From NCBI GenBank assembly GCA_964534625.1, contig CAZHRF010000006.1, positions 1 to 64,000 on the forward strand: a DNA stretch of 64,000 nt. Direction: 5' to 3'. Position numbers and translations under genes: made by a program. The notes under the pieces are model-generated. The model was given only the letters and a program-made list of their open reading frames with translations, was not told the DNA's origin and made no database searches. The stretch is from an uncultured archaeon. Lineage in GTDB: Archaea > Asgardarchaeota > Heimdallarchaeia > Heimdallarchaeales > Heimdallarchaeaceae. Positions 92 through 8,458 of the stretch are shown in pieces. Every line of letters begins with the position of its first letter. Position 1 is the stretch's first letter.

Positions 92-979
92 ATGAATATA
101 ATTGGCTCGTATTCTGATTTCCTTAATATAGCTAGAGAGCATATTGTGGGTCGTGATGAAGAGCTTGTTTTACTTTACAAAGCTGTGCATCAACGATTAC
201 CTATTATTTTAGAAGGCCCCATTGCAACTGGTAAAACTGAGTTAGCAAAGACGTTAGCCAAACTCTTGGATAAACCTTTTTATCGTGTCGATGGCGATGA
301 CAGTTTAACAGCTATTAAATTAAAAGGGTGGTTTGACCCTCCTCTTGTACTTAAGAAAGGTTTTTCTTTGGATACATTCATTCCTGGTCCTTTAACTCAA
401 GCCATGCTTGAAGGAGGTGTTTTTTTCTTTAATGAAACCAATCGTGCTCCATCAGAAACTATTAACGCTGTTTTATCTGCGTTGGATGAAAAACTGATCA
501 CAGTACCTCAATTAGGAGAAATTGAAGCTAAAAACGGTTTTCTACCTATTTTTGCCTTTAACCCACAAGATACGATCGCAACCAATCCTTTGCCATCAGC
601 TTTTTATGACCGTTGTATTTGGATCAAATTACTTCCTCAATCATTGGAAGAGATGATAGAGATTACAACAATGCGTACAAAATGTAATGATACATTTCTT
701 ATAAAACTCGCGTGTGAGCTTGTCCAAGCAACTTTGGTTCATCCTGAATTAAAAAAAGCGTCAACCGTTAGAGGGGCTATCCAATTAGTTCATTTACTAT
801 ACCCCCAAGAAACGATAACCCGCAATACTTTATTATCAGTGGTCCTACCTATTCATTCTCGAAAAATAACCATCAAATCTACTTCAGCAAAAAATGAAGA
901 ATCCATATTAACCGAGATTACCGATAAATTATTGGTTAAATATCAAGACCATCCTAGAATAGAATCAAAAAAAGCATAA
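92..979 (+). CDS. MoxR-family AAA+ ATPase (CoxD/CbbQ-like)
   Basis: HIVGR N-terminus, Walker A GPIATGKT, GPLTQAM, variant Walker B FFFNETNR, NPQD sensor, LPSAFYDRC arginine finger; followed by a vWA gene. Confidence 0.9.
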   Translation: MNIIGSYSDFLNIAREHIVGRDEELVLLYKAVHQRLPIILEGPIATGKTELAKTLAKLLDKPFYRVDGDDSLTAIKLKGWFDPPLVLKKGFSLDTFIPGPLTQAMLEGGVFFFNETNRAPSETINAVLSALDEKLITVPQLGEIEAKNGFLPIFAFNPQDTIATNPLPSAFYDRCIWIKLLPQSLEEMIEITTMRTKCNDTFLIKLACELVQATLVHPELKKASTVRGAIQLVHLLYPQETITRNTLLSVVLPIHSRKITIKSTSAKNEESILTEITDKLLVKYQDHPRIESKKA

Positions 980-2004
980 AAGGTGACCCTCAATTAAAAG
1001 GGGATGAACCGTTTTTAAGAAATAAAACCAAGCAAATCGAACATAAAATATTACTTAATGATATCTATCTAGAACTAGGAAAACGCGAAGACGATTCTTC
1101 ACATATAATTAAATTAGCGAATACCGCTAAAGAAAGTCAGAGTCTAGAGGGGTTAAGGATTATTGCCACCAATTATCCCTCGATTGTAGGTATTGTTTTG
1201 AATAGCATGGAACTCAGCAATGTACTTTTTAATGAAGGTCTAGATAAAAATTTACTTGAACTCTTTAGTTTGACAAAGAGTACACTAAGTTATGAAAAAA
1301 GAAAAACTATCATAGAACGTTTGATACCCTACATTGTAAAAAAATCTTCAGATATTTTCACGAAAAGTCAATCGATTGGCCTTTCATCTTTTTCTTCTTA
1401 TGAACCAGGATTTGAATGGGATCTAATGCTTACCCTACAAAACATATTACAATCGGGTACAAAACACATTACATACGATTCAATCATAACCAAAAAGACA
1501 AGAAAGCGAGATTTAGCTTACTTCATTTGTATTGATAAAAGTTTAAGTGTATTTTCTTTAATTCATCAAATTGTCTTACTTGCTGCAGTCCTTTCATATG
1601 CAAGCAAAGGAGAGGATTATTCTATAGTGGTTTTTGACAGCCAAGCACGTGTTCTAAAAGAGATAAGAGAATACAAACACATAGAAAAAACAATAGAAGA
1701 AATTTTAACTATCGAGAGTGGAGGAAAAACGAATATTCATGCAGGTTTAAAAGCATCGTTACAAGAAATGATGATGAGCAGAAAAACAAGGAATAGATTA
1801 CTTTTAGTAACAGATTTTCAAAAAACAGCTGGAAAGGATCCTTTTTCTTTACTTACTCAATTTACTGATGTAAAATTGATATATGTGAGGAGTCATAGAG
1901 ATAGAGCTATTATAAACAAAGTTGAAGAATTAGAAAATACTGAAATCTTTGAATTATCTACAGATACAGATTTACTAACTCTTTGTAATCAACTATTAAT
2001 GTAA
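958..2004 (+). CDS. vWA-domain protein (CoxE-like MoxR partner); frame is open from 958, ORF track start TTG 1198 is probably not the true 5' end
   Basis: MIDAS motif CIDKSLS, GKTNI and LVTDF; frame 1 has no stop from 958 to 2001 and no ATG/GTG/TTG before 1198. Confidence 0.8.
   Translation, partial: NRIKKSIKGDPQLKGDEPFLRNKTKQIEHKILLNDIYLELGKREDDSSHIIKLANTAKESQSLEGLRIIATNYPSIVGIVLNSMELSNVLFNEGLDKNLLELFSLTKSTLSYEKRKTIIERLIPYIVKKSSDIFTKSQSIGLSSFSSYEPGFEWDLMLTLQNILQSGTKHITYDSIITKKTRKRDLAYFICIDKSLSVFSLIHQIVLLAAVLSYASKGEDYSIVVFDSQARVLKEIREYKHIEKTIEEILTIESGGKTNIHAGLKASLQEMMMSRKTRNRLLLVTDFQKTAGKDPFSLLTQFTDVKLIYVRSHRDRAIINKVEELENTEIFELSTDTDLLTLCNQLLM
967..1010 (+). promoter_or_regulatory. Candidate -1 ribosomal frameshift signal (A_AAA_AAA slippery site plus weak downstream stem)
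   Basis: TCA AAA AAA GCA TAA in the MoxR frame; CCCT (987-990)/AGGG (999-1002) and GGT (982-984)/ACC (1008-1010) can pair starting 8 nt downstream. Confidence 0.55.
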
Positions 2005-2036: not shown

Positions 2037-3374
2037 TTAGTCTCTTCTTCTTCTTCTTTTTTTAAAGAAAATAGCACTTTGTTCAGTTACTATAAGAAAA
2101 ATACCAAGAAAATCAAAAACTAGCCCATGATATTTTGCTTTTGTTCGTTCAAACGTATATGATAGACTTACTTCAATTCTATATCTAAATGATGTTGTTT
2201 CGTTAAAATCATCAGCAAGCAATATCAAATAATAAATATCAGTTTCTGGTAAATCAAATGATAAAACATCAATTGTGAGGTCATCTGTAGTAACATTCAT
2301 TTTCGTATAATATGTAGCATTGTCAAATAGATCAGATTTTAGATTTTCATAACTCGCGAATAATTCATCATAGGAGATATTAAATTGATAATAAGCTTTA
2401 GTAATATTTTCAAATTGATCAAAAAAAGCATTAAAACCATTCTCTTCTGCTAAAAGGATTGAAAGATTATAATCTACTCTTCCTTGCTTGCTAGATATAT
2501 TTAGATATTCTAGATTGTTTTCTTCATTTTCGATAATTAGTCCTAGTGTAGGATCGAAATGTGAGTTCGTTACTTCAAGACTACTTGTTGCCACATAATT
2601 TCTAGAATAACTATAGCCTATAATAGGGCCCATTAAGAGTCCTAAAAATAAAAGGTATATCCCAAACAGAGTGAATTTCTTGTTGATATGTCTATAAACG
2701 TTCGTACAAAAATCGTTTATTTTACCTTGATTTTCTTTTGGTTGTTTACGTTTTACTGTAGGTATGAATATAATAAATACCCATAGTACTACTATCAAAA
2801 CTTGAACTGCTAACTGGTCAATATACAAATCAATATACTCACCATATATTTGCATTCGCTCTTCTTGTGATACATTGATGAAGAAAAGATTTGTTCCTTC
2901 CTTGTATGAGTAAATTGTCCATCTAGGCAAGATACCAACCAAAACTAAAGGTAAAAACAACCATGCTTGATTAGAGAATCTAAAATAAACAGTCAAATCA
3001 TAAAATCTTGAATCGAGTGGCCAAAATAATTGAATTGGTCCCCATCCAAGATCTAAAAAAACATGTAAAAAGTACATGATAGCAGCTAACTTCATAGTAT
3101 AATTTTTATATTTACTCTCTTGATCAAATATATTCCTTGATTGATTCAGTTGTTCAAGTATGAGTATTCCGAGAAGAAAAAAAGTTGGTAATACAATACT
3201 ATGAGTTGGTCCCCTGTGTATACCGAAGAAAATATCTATATCGGGTAATAGTGCTACTAGGTTAATAAGCAGAAAGGTCCATCTATGTTGTTTATAATAT
3301 TCTTTCTTCTCTTTAGGGAGTAAACCCCAGACAAATAGTCCTTGTAATGCAAGATGAGTTGGTGTCAATGCCAT
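2037..3374 (-). CDS. Membrane-bound metal-dependent hydrolase (YdjM/DUF457-like) with C-terminal extension
   Basis: TPTH, LLPDID, HRGPTHS and HVFLD motifs, multiple TM segments. Start re-set to ATG 3374 (MALTPTH), preceded by AGGAG on the minus strand. Confidence 0.8.
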   Translation of the reverse strand: MALTPTHLALQGLFVWGLLPKEKKEYYKQHRWTFLLINLVALLPDIDIFFGIHRGPTHSIVLPTFFLLGILILEQLNQSRNIFDQESKYKNYTMKLAAIMYFLHVFLDLGWGPIQLFWPLDSRFYDLTVYFRFSNQAWLFLPLVLVGILPRWTIYSYKEGTNLFFINVSQEERMQIYGEYIDLYIDQLAVQVLIVVLWVFIIFIPTVKRKQPKENQGKINDFCTNVYRHINKKFTLFGIYLLFLGLLMGPIIGYSYSRNYVATSSLEVTNSHFDPTLGLIIENEENNLEYLNISSKQGRVDYNLSILLAEENGFNAFFDQFENITKAYYQFNISYDELFASYENLKSDLFDNATYYTKMNVTTDDLTIDVLSFDLPETDIYYLILLADDFNETTSFRYRIEVSLSYTFERTKAKYHGLVFDFLGIFLIVTEQSAIFFKKRRRRRD

Positions 3375-3547
3375 AGTGATATTTCTCCTTTTAGATACAT
3401 AGTATACATTCAGTATAAAGCATTTTTTCTGTATATTTATATATGAAAACCTGTTTGTATTTATTGAACATTTGCTTATTACAACTAAAAACAAAGACTT
3501 ATTATTCTTAGAAGTCATAAACGATTCAGAACATTTGGGGTATTAGA

Positions 3548-6500
3548 ATGATTGAAAACATGCAATCTCAGTATATTGAGAGATTAAAAAGTTTCTTCCA
3601 AGGATATGTGAACGAATCTGGAAGGCATATTTATGTTGAACAAATTCAAAAAATATCGTTAGAAGGATTGCTCTCACTTTACATTAATTATGATGATCTA
3701 TTACGGTTTGATCCAGGTACAGCTCAAGAACTGAGGGAAGACCCAGAAACTATCATCCATGACGCTGATGAAGCATTTAGAGAGGTCTTAAAAATTGAAG
3801 ACCCGATTTATGCAGAAGAACATAAAAATGATTTACGTGTTCGTTTTACTAATATCCCCGACCAAGTAGATCTACGATATCTACGTTCTGTTCACCTTGG
3901 AAATCTTATTTCTGTAGAAGGCATGATTGTTAGACAAAGTGTGGTTAAACCACTGTTAGTTCAAGGTGTTTTCCAATGTCTAAATTGTGGAGAAACATCT
4001 CTTGTGCACCAAGAATTGGGATTGTATACAGAACCAACACAGTGTCCTAACGCCAATTGTGGAAAAAAAGGACCATTTAAGTTATTAACTGATGATCCCT
4101 ATACAACATATACCGATTTACAAACAGTTACTATTCAAGAACGCCCCGAAAACCTCCCTCCTGGACAAATTCCCCGTTCTCTTCCTGCTAGGTTGGTTGG
4201 TGATCTTGTAGATAAGGTACGGGCAGGAGATAGATCTATTGTCAGTGGTATAGTAAGAATGAAGGCTAGTTTCCAAGGAAAAAAAGGAAGACTAGCAACA
4301 TTCAACCCATGGATGGAAGTGAATTTTGTTTCCTCAAGAGAGAAAGAATTTGAGGAGATAGATATTGATCCAGAAACAGAGAGAAAAATAGTTGAATTAT
4401 CCAGAGATCTAAATATCCATCAAAAAATAATTCGATCAGTGGCACCGTCAATATATGGAATGGAAACAATAAAAGAAGCAATAGCAACAGTACTTTTTGG
4501 TGGAGTGTCAAGAGTAGCACCAGATGGAATGAAACAAAGGGGAGAGTCAAACTTACTGATAGTAGGAGACCCGGGAGTAGCTAAATGTGTAGCTCCCGAC
4601 ACCAAAGTGTTACTGGCCAATGGTGAATTAAAAGAAATACGTGATATAGTTGAATCTCAATTGTCTATAAATAAAACAGAAATTGATGATGGCTATTATG
4701 CAGAAGGAATTTTACCAATAATGACACTTAGACCCGATGGAAAAATTGTTGAACATTATGCCAATATATTTTGGAAAAGAGAAAGTCCTAAGAATATTTA
4801 CCTGATTACCACAAAAACAGGGAAAAAACTACATGTTACACCTACTCATCCATTTTTCACAATAAAAAAAGGGAAAATTGCTTCTATCCGTGCTCAAGAT
4901 TTAGAAACAGGTCAATTTATAGCAACTCCTAGATTGATAAAATCTAATATTGATATAGTACCAAATTTGCAAGAATTATTTAGAAATACTAGAAAAGAAC
5001 TGGACCTATCCCAATATAAAATGGGGATTTCTCGAACAACTTATCAGCATTATGAAGAGGGTGATTGTAATCCTTCAATGGCTAAATTGCAAACAATAGT
5101 AAAACATTTAGAAAATACTGTAATGAGCTCTAAATCGCTTAGTTTAAAGAAATTAAAGAAGCACTCTACCTCCGATATATTTTGGGATCAAGTTATAGGT
5201 ATTAAGAAAATTAAACCTAAATTCGATTATGTTTATGATTTGCAAGTACCTATTACTCATAATTTTATAGCTAATGGTGTTGTGGTACATAATAGTCAAT
5301 TACTACAATTTACTCATAGATTAGCTCCAAGAGGAATTTTTACATCAGGGAAAGGATCGTCAGCAGCAGGGTTAACAGCAGCAGTTGTACGAGATGCAGA
5401 TACAGGAGAGTTTACATTAGAAGCAGGTGCACTAGTGCTTGGAGATCGTGGAATTGCGTGCATGTTACCAGATTCCAAGGTTGTTTCCAATGGAAAAATA
5501 GTACGAATTGAGCAGTTATTTGATGAGAATAATAAATACGTGGGCAAAACCAGTCAAGAAATAATCGAGATTACTGACATAGAAATTGAAACATTAGTAT
5601 TGGATGATACTCTAATCTCAAAGAGCGCAATAAGTTCAAAAATACGTCGTAAGAGATATGATGGTCGTATATTGGAATTAACAACAGATACTGGATTTAA
5701 ATTAAAATTGACCCCAGACCATAAAATAATTGATGGTGCAACGCTAGAATGGAAAGAAGTTAACGAATTAAATTCCGGTGATTCTGTTGTTGCTCCATTG
5801 CTACTAAAGAATAATACAAAAGATATATTTGTTTTAGATGTTTTGCCTAATGATTGGATAGCGATTCTATCTATTGAAGAAAAGAATAAACTCAGAGAAT
5901 ATATTTTAAGGAAATACTCATCTTTGGCTGAATTTAATAGAAAATATGGTATCGATAAAGGAGTCTTTTCTGGAAAATCACCTCTAAGGATATCAATTTT
6001 CAAATCAATCCTTGATGAATTCAATGTTTATACTAAATGGAAAAAACACCCATTTAAATATGGTAGAATTGCATCTGGGGAAAAATTAAAAGTCTCTAAA
6101 ATAACACCAGAAATGGCTTATTATTTTGGATTCTTATATTGTGATGGGTGGGTACAAGATACAGGAAGATCGCTTAACTTGGCGATTAGTCAATCTGAAC
6201 CAAATATGAAACAAATTAGTCAAATCAAACAAATGTTCAATACTTTTTCGAATAGAAAAATTAATAGCTATAAAAGAAAGACAGAAAGTAATATTAGAGG
6301 TCAAGATGTAAGGAGTGTTCAATATCACCTAAAAATTGGTTCCAATCTCCTTGGTACATTATATGAACACATAACTCGTGATAATCTATCTCATATATTA
6401 GAACTAAAGGATGAACAGCTTAAAGCTTTTCTTGCTGGATGTATAGATGCTGATGGTTGTATTTCAACAAAATCAAACAGAAATGGCGGAAAAACTTACA

Positions 6501-8458
6501 GAATAGTGCATTTTGATTCGTTACTTTCTGATAGCCAAGACGTTAATGAAAACATTTTGTTAGCGCTCAGAAGATTTGACATTTATGCAAAAATACAAAA
6601 AACTCAGAATCCAAACGTTGATTCTATTCTAATAACTTCAAGAAAAGACGTTAAACGTCTCTCAAAAACAATTTGTGATTATAGTGTGAAATCAAAAAAT
6701 ATCGAATCAAGAAAGAATAAAGTATCTTCTAGTCGAGATAAATTACCTCAAAAAGTTGTAGCAGAAATCTGCTCAGATATAAGAAAAGAATTTTCTACCC
6801 CTATTTTACTAGAAAAGGGTCTTTGGAGCACGATTTATTCGTATCAAAAAGAAAAATATCTACCTAGTAGAGGACAATTAGGAAAAATTAAAAATCGCTT
6901 ACCATGTTTAAGTGACAAAGTTAATGCAAAAATAAACATGCTTCTAAGAGAAGACTTCTTCTTAGAACAAATTGTTGATATCAAAGAAAAGCAATATAAT
7001 GGCTATGTATACGATTTGTATGTTCCAGAGTATCATAATTTCCTTGCAGATGGAGTAATAGTCCATAATTGCATAGACGAGTTTGACAAGATGAACCACT
7101 TAGATCGTTCTTCTATTCATGAAGCTATGGAACAACAAAGTTATCATCCCTCCTTCGATCTTACTTTAAGTGACAAGACTTCCGTTTCCATTGGTGATTT
7201 TGTAGATGATCTATTTTTGATGTATCCTTCCCGTAAAGTTGATGGTATTGATTGTGAGATCCTTGATATTGATGATTTGGATCTTGGTATTTTTACCACT
7301 GATTTTTCAACAACTTACCGTACAAATATCAATAGAGTTAGTCGCCATACGGCACCAGATTATTTCATTAGGATAACCTATGATAATGGTAGAAATATAT
7401 TAGTAACACCTGAACACCCTGTTTTCGTTTCAGAAGAAGGTAAGATTATAACTAGAGCAGCTGAAAAGATTTCTAAAGGTGATTTCGCGCCTGGTGTAAA
7501 TGAACACTCATTTGAAGATGAGCAGTATATTGACACAAGGTTACGTGTAAAAAATGTTGAAATTATCAAGAATGAAGGCAAGTACAAAACAGATTGGGTA
7601 TACGATGTTACAGTTGAACCAACAGAGACTTTTATTAGTCAGGGTTTAGTCCTGCATAATACGGTTAGCATAGCCAAAGCGGGTATTGTTGCTCAACTTA
7701 ATGCACGTACTGCTATTGTGGCAGCTGCCAATCCCCGTTTTGGTCGTTATGAAAAGAATCGTCCTGCCTTAGAAAATATTAATCTCACGCCTACTATCCT
7801 TTCACGTTTTGATCTTCTTTTTGTTGTAAAAGACGAACCTGCCCCCGACCATGATCGTAAAATGGCACGTCATATTTTAGATCTTAGACGCGGGCAAATA
7901 AGTGAATATTCGGATCCCCCTATTGATATGATTTTATTACGTAAGTATATTAGTTATGCTAAGCAACATGTACAACCTAATTTAACAGATGAAGCTATGA
8001 AACGTATAGAAGATTTTTATTTGGGATTGCGTAGGCAATCTGATGATAAAACATTAGCTATTACTCCACGATATCTTGAAGCGATTATACGTCTTTCCGA
8101 AGCCCAAGCTCGTATGGCACTTAAAGATGATGTAACAATCGACCATGTAGAAGCTGCAATTCGTCTTCTAAATGATTCATTAGAACAAGTTGGGAAAGAT
8201 CCCATTACGGGGAGAGTTGATATTGACTATATTATTTCAGGTACAACTAGTGCTTCACGTTCAAATATGCAAGTGGTTATGGATATAATCAAGGTCCAAA
8301 CGAAGAAAGGCAAAAGCGAACTGGTTTCTATTGACAAGATAAAAGAACTTGCTAAAAAGGAAGGAATCGATAATGATTTTATTGATCGATTAATCGTGCA
8401 ACTACGGCAAAATGGTGAAATATACTTGCCAAAAGAAGGATATGTTAAGTTGGTATAA
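3548..8458 (+). CDS. mcm: Replicative helicase MCM precursor containing three inteins (spliced product ~689 aa)
   Basis: Zn finger CLNC...CPNANC, Walker A GDPGVAK/SQ, Walker B CIDEFDKM, EAMEQQ/TVSIAKAG, SRFD arginine finger, C-terminal wHTH. Confidence 0.97.
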   Translation: MIENMQSQYIERLKSFFQGYVNESGRHIYVEQIQKISLEGLLSLYINYDDLLRFDPGTAQELREDPETIIHDADEAFREVLKIEDPIYAEEHKNDLRVRFTNIPDQVDLRYLRSVHLGNLISVEGMIVRQSVVKPLLVQGVFQCLNCGETSLVHQELGLYTEPTQCPNANCGKKGPFKLLTDDPYTTYTDLQTVTIQERPENLPPGQIPRSLPARLVGDLVDKVRAGDRSIVSGIVRMKASFQGKKGRLATFNPWMEVNFVSSREKEFEEIDIDPETERKIVELSRDLNIHQKIIRSVAPSIYGMETIKEAIATVLFGGVSRVAPDGMKQRGESNLLIVGDPGVAKCVAPDTKVLLANGELKEIRDIVESQLSINKTEIDDGYYAEGILPIMTLRPDGKIVEHYANIFWKRESPKNIYLITTKTGKKLHVTPTHPFFTIKKGKIASIRAQDLETGQFIATPRLIKSNIDIVPNLQELFRNTRKELDLSQYKMGISRTTYQHYEEGDCNPSMAKLQTIVKHLENTVMSSKSLSLKKLKKHSTSDIFWDQVIGIKKIKPKFDYVYDLQVPITHNFIANGVVVHNSQLLQFTHRLAPRGIFTSGKGSSAAGLTAAVVRDADTGEFTLEAGALVLGDRGIACMLPDSKVVSNGKIVRIEQLFDENNKYVGKTSQEIIEITDIEIETLVLDDTLISKSAISSKIRRKRYDGRILELTTDTGFKLKLTPDHKIIDGATLEWKEVNELNSGDSVVAPLLLKNNTKDIFVLDVLPNDWIAILSIEEKNKLREYILRKYSSLAEFNRKYGIDKGVFSGKSPLRISIFKSILDEFNVYTKWKKHPFKYGRIASGEKLKVSKITPEMAYYFGFLYCDGWVQDTGRSLNLAISQSEPNMKQISQIKQMFNTFSNRKINSYKRKTESNIRGQDVRSVQYHLKIGSNLLGTLYEHITRDNLSHILELKDEQLKAFLAGCIDADGCISTKSNRNGGKTYRIVHFDSLLSDSQDVNENILLALRRFDIYAKIQKTQNPNVDSILITSRKDVKRLSKTICDYSVKSKNIESRKNKVSSSRDKLPQKVVAEICSDIRKEFSTPILLEKGLWSTIYSYQKEKYLPSRGQLGKIKNRLPCLSDKVNAKINMLLREDFFLEQIVDIKEKQYNGYVYDLYVPEYHNFLADGVIVHNCIDEFDKMNHLDRSSIHEAMEQQSYHPSFDLTLSDKTSVSIGDFVDDLFLMYPSRKVDGIDCEILDIDDLDLGIFTTDFSTTYRTNINRVSRHTAPDYFIRITYDNGRNILVTPEHPVFVSEEGKIITRAAEKISKGDFAPGVNEHSFEDEQYIDTRLRVKNVEIIKNEGKYKTDWVYDVTVEPTETFISQGLVLHNTVSIAKAGIVAQLNARTAIVAAANPRFGRYEKNRPALENINLTPTILSRFDLLFVVKDEPAPDHDRKMARHILDLRRGQISEYSDPPIDMILLRKYISYAKQHVQPNLTDEAMKRIEDFYLGLRRQSDDKTLAITPRYLEAIIRLSEAQARMALKDDVTIDHVEAAIRLLNDSLEQVGKDPITGRVDIDYIISGTTSASRSNMQVVMDIIKVQTKKGKSELVSIDKIKELAKKEGIDNDFIDRLIVQLRQNGEIYLPKEGYVKLV
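4586..5293 (+). mobile_element. Intein 1 in MCM Walker A (236 aa; no endonuclease; contains XRE/Cro-like HTH)
   Basis: Starts C-VAPDT after GDPGVAK; block B TPTHPF; ends VYDLQV...GVVVHN followed by +1 Ser; internal RKELDLSQ...ISRTTYQHYEEGDCNPS. Confidence 0.93.
5459..7069 (+). mobile_element. Intein 2 just before MCM Walker B (537 aa) with LAGLIDADG homing endonuclease
   Basis: Starts C-MLPDS after GDRGIA; TPDHK; LAGLIDADG motifs AYYFGFLYCDG and AFLAGCIDADG; ends VYDLYV...GVIVHN followed by +1 Cys (CIDEFDK). Confidence 0.95.
7139..7660 (+). mobile_element. Intein 3, Ser-initiated mini-intein (174 aa) in EAMEQQ/TVS
   Basis: Starts S-YHPSF after EAMEQQ; TPEHPV; ends VYDVTV...GLVLHN followed by +1 Thr. 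Confidence 0.93.

What the first reader, a model, noticed from the sequence alone, without database searches (positions are those of the whole stretch)
92..2004. MoxR AAA+ and vWA genes appear joined by a -1 programmed frameshift, giving two subunits from one gene
Seen: MoxR ends GAA TCA AAA AAA GCA TAA (962-979). The vWA frame (-1) opens right after TAG 955-957 and runs stop-free to 2004, but has no ATG/GTG/TTG for its first 80 codons, which read as plausible protein (SIKGDPQLKG...LLNDIYLELG...LRIIATNYPSIVG). The ~20 nt overlap contains an in-phase X_XXY_YYZ heptamer, A_AAA_AAA (967-973), and a weak stem begins 8 nt downstream. Slippage would give a 637 aa AAA-linker-vWA fusion alongside the 295 aa ATPase. 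Known: chlD chelatase genes make ChlI-like and ChlD-like subunits by frameshifting, and Sulfolobus fucA1 uses -1 frameshifting. Inference: a MoxR/vWA chaperone whose hexamer:adaptor stoichiometry is set by recoding. I do not know of this being described in Asgard archaea.
Basis: partly seen in the sequence, partly recalled or inferred. Interest (0 to 1): 0.85.

Follow-up and report, generated by a model that had tools for sequence, protein, structure and literature searches.

The report
Conserved -1 frameshift joining ATPase to vWA
In this Heimdall-group (Asgard) archaeon and about 45 related genomes, an AAA+ ATPase gene and the start-less vWA gene behind it are best read as one recoded gene: some ribosomes probably slip back one base at a conserved run of A's before a hairpin, giving the ATPase alone and an ATPase-vWA fusion. 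This is inferred from sequence comparison only.

Summary
The MoxR-type ORF is 92-979. The -1 frame is open from 958 to 2004 and has no ATG/GTG/TTG for 80 codons. An in-phase A_AAA_AAA heptamer lies at 967-973, and a weak stem starts 8 nt downstream.

Comparative evidence supports programmed recoding:
- 27 distinct junctions in the window's own family (public titles: Candidatus Heimdallarchaeota) keep exactly A7 in the same phase.
- 18 genomes of a second family and one Hodarchaeales contig keep A_AAA_AAA/C/T, or longer A runs, always with vWA in the -1 frame.
- A 3' hairpin is conserved. It shows compensatory changes in family 1 and forced GC-rich codons in family 2.
- The start-less stretch is under purifying selection (median dN/dS 0.23) and folds into a helical domain that the first TTG would cut.
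- Natural in-frame AAA_5-vWA fusions exist. One reads P-K-K-R at the junction, as the slip predicts.

The logic matches the published frameshifted chlD chelatase genes. However, the ATPase is AAA_5 (NorQ/CbbQ-like), not ChlI-type, and the genome has no CobN/ChlH. Public annotation shows two genes with truncated vWA proteins.

No RNA, protein or raw-read evidence was available, and transcriptional slippage is not excluded. This scan has already noted similar MoxR-vWA frameshifts on other DNA.

The parts
92..979 (+). Zero-frame ORF: MoxR-type AAA+ ATPase, 295 aa. This is the product when no slip occurs.
   Evidence: ORF. Pfam AAA_5 at 64 bits against a cut-off of 22; Mg_chelatase only 14 bits against a cut-off of 20.3; the best single-domain match among solved structures is NorQ (50 bits).
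955..957 (+). TAG, the last stop codon in the -1 frame. The -1 frame is open from 958.
967..973 (+). Slippery heptamer A_AAA_AAA, in phase with the ATPase frame.
   Evidence: It is exactly A7 in the same phase in 27 distinct family-1 junctions. At the site Lys is AAA in 54 of 54 codons, against 24% AAG elsewhere in the same ORFs, and the preceding codon always ends in A.
977..979 (+). TAA stop of the ATPase frame, one codon after the heptamer.
   Evidence: In relatives the stop lies 0-15 nt after the heptamer.
982..1010 (+). Two-part stem-loop: GGU/ACC lower helix and CCCU/AGGG upper helix, 8 nt downstream of the heptamer. It is the putative frameshift stimulator and is weak in this genome.
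   Evidence: RNAalifold consensus; 88% of cells are paired against 25-58% when the partners are slid, 7 pairs change on both sides, and 0 of 500 shuffles reach the observed score. (single-sequence folds).
973..2004 (+). -1 frame coding part, read after the slip: 343 codons plus TAA. It comprises a flexible linker (about 973-1020), a helical domain (about 1009-1380) and a vWA domain (about 1486-2001) with MIDAS Asp at 1534-1536.
   Evidence: the alignment is conserved from the first post-slip residues; dN/dS 0.23. D188, S190, S192, T253 and D281 are invariant. AlphaFold2 pLDDT 81, residues 1-16 disordered, helices 13-136; the best fold matches are NorD in NorQD complexes.
1198..1200 (+). TTG, the first canonical start codon in the -1 frame (codon 81 of the open frame). 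Starting here would give a 268 aa protein cut off inside the helical domain.
   Evidence: Called proteins in public collections begin at various internal positions and are 265-331 aa long.

Best explanation
Positions 92-2004 form one recoded gene. Most ribosomes read 92-979 and release a 295 aa MoxR-type (AAA_5, NorQ/CbbQ-like) ATPase. A fraction slip back one base on A_AAA_AAA (967-973), probably helped by the stem-loop that starts 8 nt downstream. These continue in the -1 frame to 2004 and make a 637 aa ATPase-linker-helical domain-vWA(MIDAS) protein. The cell therefore gets a plain ring subunit and a ring subunit with a tethered vWA adaptor from one mRNA, in a ratio fixed by slip efficiency. 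Shown by comparison: the cassette is conserved, the -1 frame is coding from the slip site onward, and in-frame fusions exist in relatives. Inferred: that the slip is ribosomal, how efficient it is, that the two products form mixed hexamers, and what the machine acts on (no client is evident from the neighbouring genes).
For: (1) Family 1 (public titles: Candidatus Heimdallarchaeota, MAGs from many studies) has 27 distinct junctions. All have exactly A7 followed by G, in the same phase. The ATPase stop follows 1-2 codons later, vWA is in the -1 frame, and the first canonical start falls at codon 16-81, not at a conserved position. Lys at the site is AAA in 54 of 54 codons, against 24% AAG elsewhere. 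An Arg four codons upstream uses all six Arg codons, while the Arg just before the run uses only CGA or AGA.
(2) A second family of the same class has 18 of 18 junctions in the -1 frame. The heptamers are A_AAA_AAC (6), A_AAA_AAA within runs of A7-A9 (9) and A_AAA_AAT (1), all in phase, plus A10 and A11 runs (2). In 16 of these a GCGGGA/UCCCGC hairpin follows 4-7 nt later. Its codons are CGG in 16 of 16 (4.9% of Arg codons elsewhere) and CCC in 16 of 16 (13% of Pro codons elsewhere).
(3) A Hodarchaeales contig shows GAA_AAA_AAA_TAA, a -1 frame, and an 8 bp hairpin.
(4) The family-1 stem-loop has compensatory changes, including changes that alter both encoded amino acids: CCCUAC/GUAGGG, CCUUAC/GUAAGG and CUCUAUC/GAUAGAG.
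(5) The 75 post-slip codons upstream of TTG 1198 have a median dN/dS of 0.23. They form four confident helices of a helical domain.
(6) Natural in-frame AAA_5-vWA proteins of 580-710 aa are common among homologues. The fusion in G025 reads CCG AAA AAA CGC (P-K-K-R), which has the residues the slip predicts and a broken heptamer. In G025 and in the Hodarchaeales contig a separate plain ATPase gene sits beside the fusion, so both products appear to be wanted.
(7) On the vWA tree all frameshifted forms fall in one supported clade (98/90) that also holds two fusions. The ordinary separate-gene paralogue falls in the other clade.
(8) Precedent: -1 frameshifting at A_AAA_AAA and longer A runs in chlD-type genes gave 10-63% efficiency in E. 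coli reporters (PMC3711429).
Against: There is no RNA, peptide or reporter evidence for any member. No raw reads were available, so A7 in this genome rests on assembled contigs that may be its own source. The window's own stem is weak, with a 4 bp upper helix and z -1.7. In family 1 the main helix begins 13 nt after the heptamer, beyond the usual 5-9 nt; only a 3 bp lower helix begins at 8 nt, and two of its three pairs never vary and so say nothing. The stem arms lie on conserved codons (G-D and D-E-P), so protein constraint explains part of the conservation. Two genomes have A10 or A11 and no hairpin, which fits polymerase slippage as well. Related genomes are not independent samples.
Confidence: 0.8

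Rival explanations
1. The frame change is made by RNA polymerase, not the ribosome. Polymerase stutters on the A run and adds one A to a fraction of transcripts, which then encode the fusion in a single frame.
For: The site is a homopolymer. Two relatives have A10 or A11 and no hairpin. In chlD cassettes efficiency rose with A-run length (PMC3711429), and that paper discusses both mechanisms.
Against: The run is in the X_XXY_YYZ phase at all 46 junctions, which polymerase slippage does not require. Seven genomes have only A6, as A_AAA_AAC (6) or A_AAA_AAT (1). A 3' hairpin at 4-8 nt is conserved, with compensatory changes or forced rare codons, and it has no known role in polymerase slippage.
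Confidence: 0.12
2. These are two ordinary genes. The vWA protein is started independently, either at a non-canonical codon near 958-1000 or by reinitiation after the ATPase stop.
For: The ORFs overlap like many coupled gene pairs. GGTGA (982-986) resembles a Shine-Dalgarno core. A paralogous MoxR-vWA pair elsewhere in the same genome is organised as two genes, with a GTG start and a 47 nt gap.
Against: No start codon of any conserved kind or position follows the stop. The first ATG/GTG/TTG ranges from codon 2 to codon 195 of the open frame across relatives. The GTG inside GGTGAC is in the wrong frame. This reading does not explain the invariant in-phase heptamer, the hairpin or the natural fusions.
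Confidence: 0.04
3. It is an assembly error in a homopolymer, or a recently broken fused gene (pseudogene).
For: A7 versus A8 is a typical homopolymer error, and A8 would restore a single frame.
Against: The same interruption is present in 46 junctions from species-level genomes assembled in many different studies. Both halves are under purifying selection. Four separately assembled runs show A7.
Confidence: 0.01

Closest known systems
Frameshifted chlD (Mg/Co-chelatase medium subunit) genes: Antonov et al. 2013 (PMC3711429); Kuznetsov et al. 2022 (PMC9227772)
   Same: One gene gives an AAA+ subunit alone and, after a -1 shift at A_AAA_AAA or a longer A run, an AAA+-linker-vWA subunit. Relatives have in-frame fusions. 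The genes are annotated as two adjacent genes. Archaeal members are known (Methanocaldococcus, Methanococcus).
   Different: Here the ATPase is Pfam AAA_5 (NorQ/CbbQ/MoxR type), and it falls below the Mg_chelatase cut-off. No CobN/ChlH large subunit was found in the genome, which is 90% complete. The hosts are Heimdall-group Asgard archaea. A 3' hairpin is conserved and supported by covariation, whereas the 2016 review calls the chelatase structure 'not strongly conserved' (PMC5009743).
NorQ/NorD and CbbQ/CbbO MoxR-vWA chaperone pairs (PMC9976466; PDB 9qhd, 9qh6, 6l1q)
   Same: Both have an AAA_5 ATPase and a partner with a C-terminal vWA/MIDAS domain. NorD is the best fold match to the vWA part, and NorQ is the best single-domain sequence match to the ATPase. 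One NorD binds each NorQ hexamer (PMC9976466), which fits a minority fused subunit.
   Different: In those systems the two proteins are separate genes with their own starts. The adaptors are larger (NorD about 70 kDa) with unrelated N-terminal domains. Their clients are known (cNOR, Rubisco); here no client is known.
Sulfolobus solfataricus fucA1 -1 frameshift (reviewed in PMC8211752)
   Same: It is a cellular archaeal -1 frameshift at an A-rich heptamer (A_AAA_AAT) with a putative stem-loop. The same heptamer occurs in one relative here (L082).
   Different: fucA1 is interrupted in only a few strains, and its relatives are full-length. Here the interruption is conserved across two families. 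The zero-frame product of fucA1 has no known function.
E. coli dnaX tau/gamma (established knowledge; shift site cited in PMC5009743)
   Same: A -1 shift at an A-rich heptamer with a 3' hairpin gives two forms of an AAA+ subunit that assemble into one complex in a set ratio.
   Different: In dnaX the shift gives the shorter product, the heptamer is A_AAA_AAG, and an upstream SD-like element contributes. Here the shift gives the longer product, and Z was never G in the 46 junctions.
Eukaryotic midasin (Rea1/MDN1)
   Same: AAA_5-type domains and a MIDAS domain lie in one polypeptide. The MIDAS domains of MDN1 and Rea1 are among the fold matches. Midasin heads the sequence search with the ATPase.
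   Different: The midasin score is the sum of several AAA domains. Its best single domain scores 34 bits, against 50 bits for NorQ. Midasin has six fused AAA domains and no recoding. No specific relationship is shown.

Membership tests
-1 programmed ribosomal frameshift cassette | X_XXY_YYZ heptamer in phase with the upstream frame, inside the overlap of the two frames | tested here: met
   A_AAA_AAA at 967-973. The heptamer is in phase at 46 of 46 related junctions.
-1 programmed ribosomal frameshift cassette | Downstream RNA structure at a short spacer (usually 5-9 nt) | tested here: met
   Family 1: the structure starts at 8 nt and the upper helix shows covariation. Family 2: a GC hairpin lies at 4-7 nt and is held by rare codons. 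In the window itself the stem is weak, and the main helix lies 13 nt away.
-1 programmed ribosomal frameshift cassette | The downstream frame is coding from the shift site and lacks its own start | tested here: met
   dN/dS 0.23. The alignment is conserved from the first post-slip residue. There is no conserved start.
-1 programmed ribosomal frameshift cassette | A trans-frame protein is actually made, and the shift is ribosomal | not testable with these tools
   No RNA run is listed and only contigs are available. This needs a reporter assay, proteomics or RNA sequencing.
Frameshifted chlD / Mg-Co chelatase | ChlI-type AAA+ module (Pfam Mg_chelatase PF01078) | tested here: not met
   14 bits against a cut-off of 20.3; the best family is AAA_5.
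Frameshifted chlD / Mg-Co chelatase | Works with a CobN/ChlH large subunit | tested here: not met
   No PF02514 match in the window's own genome, which is 89.8% complete. The control genomes gave matches.
Frameshifted chlD / Mg-Co chelatase | C-terminal vWA domain reached by a -1 shift at an A-rich heptamer | tested here: met
MoxR AAA+ / vWA partner systems (NorQD, CbbQO type) | AAA_5 / MoxR-class ATPase | tested here: met
   AAA_5 at 64 bits and AAA_3 at 38 bits. NorQ and CbbQ are among the sequence matches in the PDB.
MoxR AAA+ / vWA partner systems (NorQD, CbbQO type) | Adjacent vWA protein with an intact MIDAS motif (DxSxS...T...D) | tested here: met
   VWA_2 at 33 bits against a cut-off of 27. 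D188, S190, S192, T253 and D281 are invariant. NorD is the top fold match.
MoxR AAA+ / vWA partner systems (NorQD, CbbQO type) | Hexameric ring that binds one adaptor and remodels a client | not testable with these tools
   No complex was predicted and no client is evident from the neighbouring genes (a YdjM-like membrane protein and MCM).

The most novel reading that the evidence does not exclude
The frameshift acts as a stoichiometry device. Slip efficiency would place about one vWA/MIDAS-bearing subunit in each AAA_5 hexamer, mimicking the 6:1 NorQ:NorD complex with a tethered adaptor. This Asgard AAA_5-linker-MIDAS polypeptide could also be a surviving relative of the lineage that gave rise to eukaryotic midasin (Rea1/MDN1). 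The heptamers used are of the eukaryote-like type (A_AAA_AAC/A/T, never G).
Probability: 0.07. Interest if true: 0.85.

Novelty: new member of a known kind. Interest (0 to 1): 0.55.

Why it matters
Few conserved cellular -1 frameshifts are known in archaea, and I found none described for Asgard archaea in the paper library. This one offers three things. First, it is a natural, phylogenetically supported cassette (heptamer, spacer, hairpin) for studying frameshifting on the ribosomes closest to those of eukaryotes. Second, it is a second, independent AAA+ family that uses recoding to make a plain subunit and a vWA-bearing subunit, which suggests a general solution for ring-plus-adaptor machines. 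Third, it corrects annotation: in every genome examined the vWA protein is called with a truncated N-terminus, and the 637 aa product is missing.

Tried and rejected
- RNA evidence: no RNA holder was listed for this stretch.
- Reads: only Logan contigs of four runs from one study (possibly the source of this DNA) could be laid. They show A7 with no indel but are not independent. No raw-read pileup was possible.
- Rfam: no family matched 850-1150 at E up to 1.
- A profile search of PDB sequences with the vWA alignment found nothing.
- Midasin tops the sequence search with the ATPase. I rejected this as a specific relationship because its score sums several domains and its best single domain scores below NorQ.
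- The word-based protein search with the G025 fusion found only 4 clusters. The exhaustive HMM search was needed to see how common fusions are.
- GGTGA after the stop was considered as a Shine-Dalgarno site for an independent start. I rejected it because no in-frame start follows and the embedded GTG is out of frame.
- A fused trans-frame protein could not be built by reference, so it was neither folded nor searched. Natural fusions were used instead.
- No complex prediction was run.
- A place-based look-up of earlier scan findings gave nothing.
Full report
**What is in the window.**
- The ORF at 92-979 (295 aa) ends GAA TCA AAA AAA GCA TAA.
- The frame one base back is closed by TAG 955-957 and is then open from 958 to 2004.
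- Its first ATG/GTG/TTG is TTG 1198, codon 81.
- The seven A's at 967-973 sit as X_XXY_YYZ relative to the first ORF.
- Pfam calls the first ORF AAA_5 (64 bits; Mg_chelatase only 14 bits, below its cut-off). It calls the second VWA_2, with weaker VWA_CoxE and VWA matches.
- A slip would give 294 + 343 = 637 residues.

**Is it more than chance?** I scanned the window's whole genome (3.37 Mb) for the same anatomy: an ORF of at least 100 aa followed by a -1 frame that stays open at least 150 codons past the stop with no start within 20 codons. Six places qualified. This one has the longest start-less stretch and is one of two with an in-phase heptamer.

**The window's own family.** A search of relatives and of named genome contigs (titles mostly 'Candidatus Heimdallarchaeota archaeon', MAGs from many different projects) gave 27 distinct junction sequences.
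- All have exactly A7 followed by G, in the same phase.
- The ATPase stop follows one or two codons later.
- The vWA frame is at -1, open from 4-10 codons upstream of the run.
- The first canonical start falls anywhere from codon 16 to codon 81.
- The two Lys codons are AAA in 54 of 54 cases, although AAG makes up 24% of Lys codons elsewhere in the same ORFs.
- The Arg codon just before the run is always CGA or AGA (the window has TCA), whereas the Arg four codons upstream uses all six Arg codons.

**A second family and a third lineage.** A phylum-wide search of 400 genomes found a more distant set of orthologues in another family of the same class. All 18 junctions examined have vWA in the -1 frame.
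- The heptamers are A_AAA_AAC (6), A_AAA_AAA within runs of A7 to A9 (9) and A_AAA_AAT (1), all in phase, plus A10 and A11 runs (2).
- In 16 of the 18 a GCGGGA(n)UCCCGC hairpin follows 4-7 nt later.
- That hairpin is built from Arg CGG in 16 of 16 cases and Pro CCC in 16 of 16. These codons make up 4.9% and 13% of Arg and Pro codons in the same genes, whose GC content is 35%. Selection therefore acts on the RNA, not only on the protein.
- A JGI contig labelled Hodarchaeales has GAA_AAA_AAA_TAA, a -1 frame and an 8 bp hairpin.
- Across the 46 junctions the last heptamer base varies (A, C or T, never G) while the A6 core and its phase stay fixed. The tandem-slippage model predicts this pattern.

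**The RNA structure in family 1.** RNAalifold on 20 junctions predicts a 3 bp lower helix (GGU/ACC) starting 8 nt after the heptamer and a 5-7 bp upper helix.
- For the named structure, 88% of cells are paired, against 25-58% when the partners are slid.
- Seven pairs change on both sides, and 0 of 500 shuffles reach the observed covariation score.
- The upper helix changes as CCCUAC/GUAGGG, CCUUAC/GUAAGG and CUCUAUC/GAUAGAG. These changes alter the encoded residues on both arms together (Pro..Gly, Leu..Arg, Ser..Glu).
- Caveats: two of the three lower-helix pairs never vary and so say nothing. The main helix starts 13 nt from the heptamer. In the window itself the upper helix is only 4 bp.

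**The start-less stretch is protein.**
- The post-slip residues align from the first position (GD..EPF..LELG..ED..ELA..IATNYP).
- The 75 codons before TTG 1198 have a median dN/dS of 0.23, against 0.10 for the rest.
- AlphaFold2 on the 343 post-slip residues, using relatives as the alignment, gives pLDDT 81. Residues 1-16 are disordered (a linker), helices span 13-136, and a vWA fold follows. A start at TTG 1198 (residue 76) would remove four confident helices.
- The MIDAS residues are invariant.
- The best fold matches are NorD in the NorQD complexes, followed by complement and MDN1/Rea1 MIDAS domains.

**Fusions and paralogues.**
- G025, in a neighbouring family (a near-identical protein is named Kariarchaeaceae), has a plain 277 aa ATPase gene followed by a 638 aa in-frame AAA_5-vWA gene.
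- The G025 junction reads CCG AAA AAA CGC (P-K-K-R): the residues the slip predicts, with the heptamer broken.
- The Hodarchaeales contig has the frameshifted pair next to a 618 aa fusion.
- An exhaustive HMM search of 1.8 billion representative proteins found many AAA_5-vWA fusions of 580-710 aa. The called vWA proteins of this group begin at varied internal positions and are 265-331 aa long.
- NCBI names them 'MoxR family ATPase' and 'VWA domain-containing protein' or 'hypothetical protein'. No frameshift is annotated.
- The same genome also has an ordinary MoxR-vWA pair with its own GTG start and a 47 nt gap.
- On a vWA tree all frameshifted forms lie in one supported clade together with two fusions, and the ordinary pair lies in the other clade. 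The tree is rooted at its midpoint only, so which state came first is open.

**Artefact tests.** Contigs assembled separately from four runs of one microbial-mat study all show A7 with no indel. They may be the source of this DNA, so the weight rests on the 46 junctions from many studies.

**Mechanism.** The best reading is a programmed -1 ribosomal frameshift that gives a 295 aa ATPase and a 637 aa ATPase-linker-vWA protein. I put this at about 0.8.
- Polymerase slippage on the A run is the main rival (0.12). It fits the A10 and A11 variants but not the phase conservation, the A6 heptamers or the hairpin.
- Independent initiation (0.04) and an assembly error or pseudogene (0.01) are poorly supported.
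- NorQ hexamers bind one NorD (PMC9976466). It is therefore reasonable, but unproven, that a minority fused product supplies about one tethered adaptor per ring.
- Where the fusion is in frame, a separate plain ATPase gene sits beside it. This suggests that both products are needed.

**Comparison with what is known.** The logic matches frameshifted chlD genes. These have a -1 shift at A_AAA_AAA or longer A runs, produce an AAA+ subunit alone plus an AAA+-vWA fusion, have fusions in relatives, and include archaeal members (PMC3711429; PMC9227772; PMC5009743). Membership in that family fails on two counts: the ATPase is not ChlI-type, and the genome has no CobN/ChlH. By domain content and fold the system belongs with the NorQ/NorD and CbbQ/CbbO type of MoxR-vWA pairs. 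I found no paper on frameshifting in MoxR-vWA genes or in Asgard cellular genes.

**Earlier scan notes.** This scan's own notes already hold many similar findings on other genomes, both Asgard Hodarchaeales and bacteria. They agree with this reading but are not independent evidence.

**Verdict.** This is a new member of a known kind of recoding. It is well supported by comparison and untested at the RNA and protein level.

Noticed in passing
window 3548-8458 (+): A 1636 aa MCM helicase ORF whose translation contains long insertions with intein-like ends (Cys ... HN followed by Ser/Cys/Thr) and a LAGLIDADG-like motif. It probably carries two or three inteins.
   Followed up: no
window 2037-3518 (-): A 493 aa YdjM-family membrane protein (Pfam YdjM), convergent with the vWA gene. 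The order MoxR-vWA, YdjM-like, MCM is also found in G002.
   Followed up: partly
G000:C8:52645-53927 (-), outside the window: The only other place in this genome with a comparable anatomy and an in-phase heptamer (A_AAA_AAG near the end of a 191 aa ORF, with the -1 frame open for 263 codons). It is a possible second frameshift site or a chance overlap.
   Followed up: no
L021 1895-3811 (-) (G025): The AAA module of the natural 638 aa fusion has a deviant Walker A (GRSGSGKR: Arg where Thr/Ser is expected), while the plain ATPase next to it has GDVGTGKT. This recalls the degenerate AAA module of ChlD.
   Followed up: no
L094, L095 (G069, G070): These two family-2 genomes replace the A6-A9 run plus GC hairpin with an A10 or A11 run and no detectable hairpin. 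The ATPase frame runs on for five more codons after the run before its stop.
   Followed up: partly
L098 5946-8532: In the Hodarchaeales contig, three small Arf/Ras-family GTPase genes lie directly beside the MoxR-vWA genes and the fusion paralogue.
   Followed up: no
G004, G007 (genus g5), G008, G018: Four genomes of the window's family, two of them single-contig, have only the ordinary separate MoxR-vWA paralogue and no frameshifted orthologue.
   Followed up: partly
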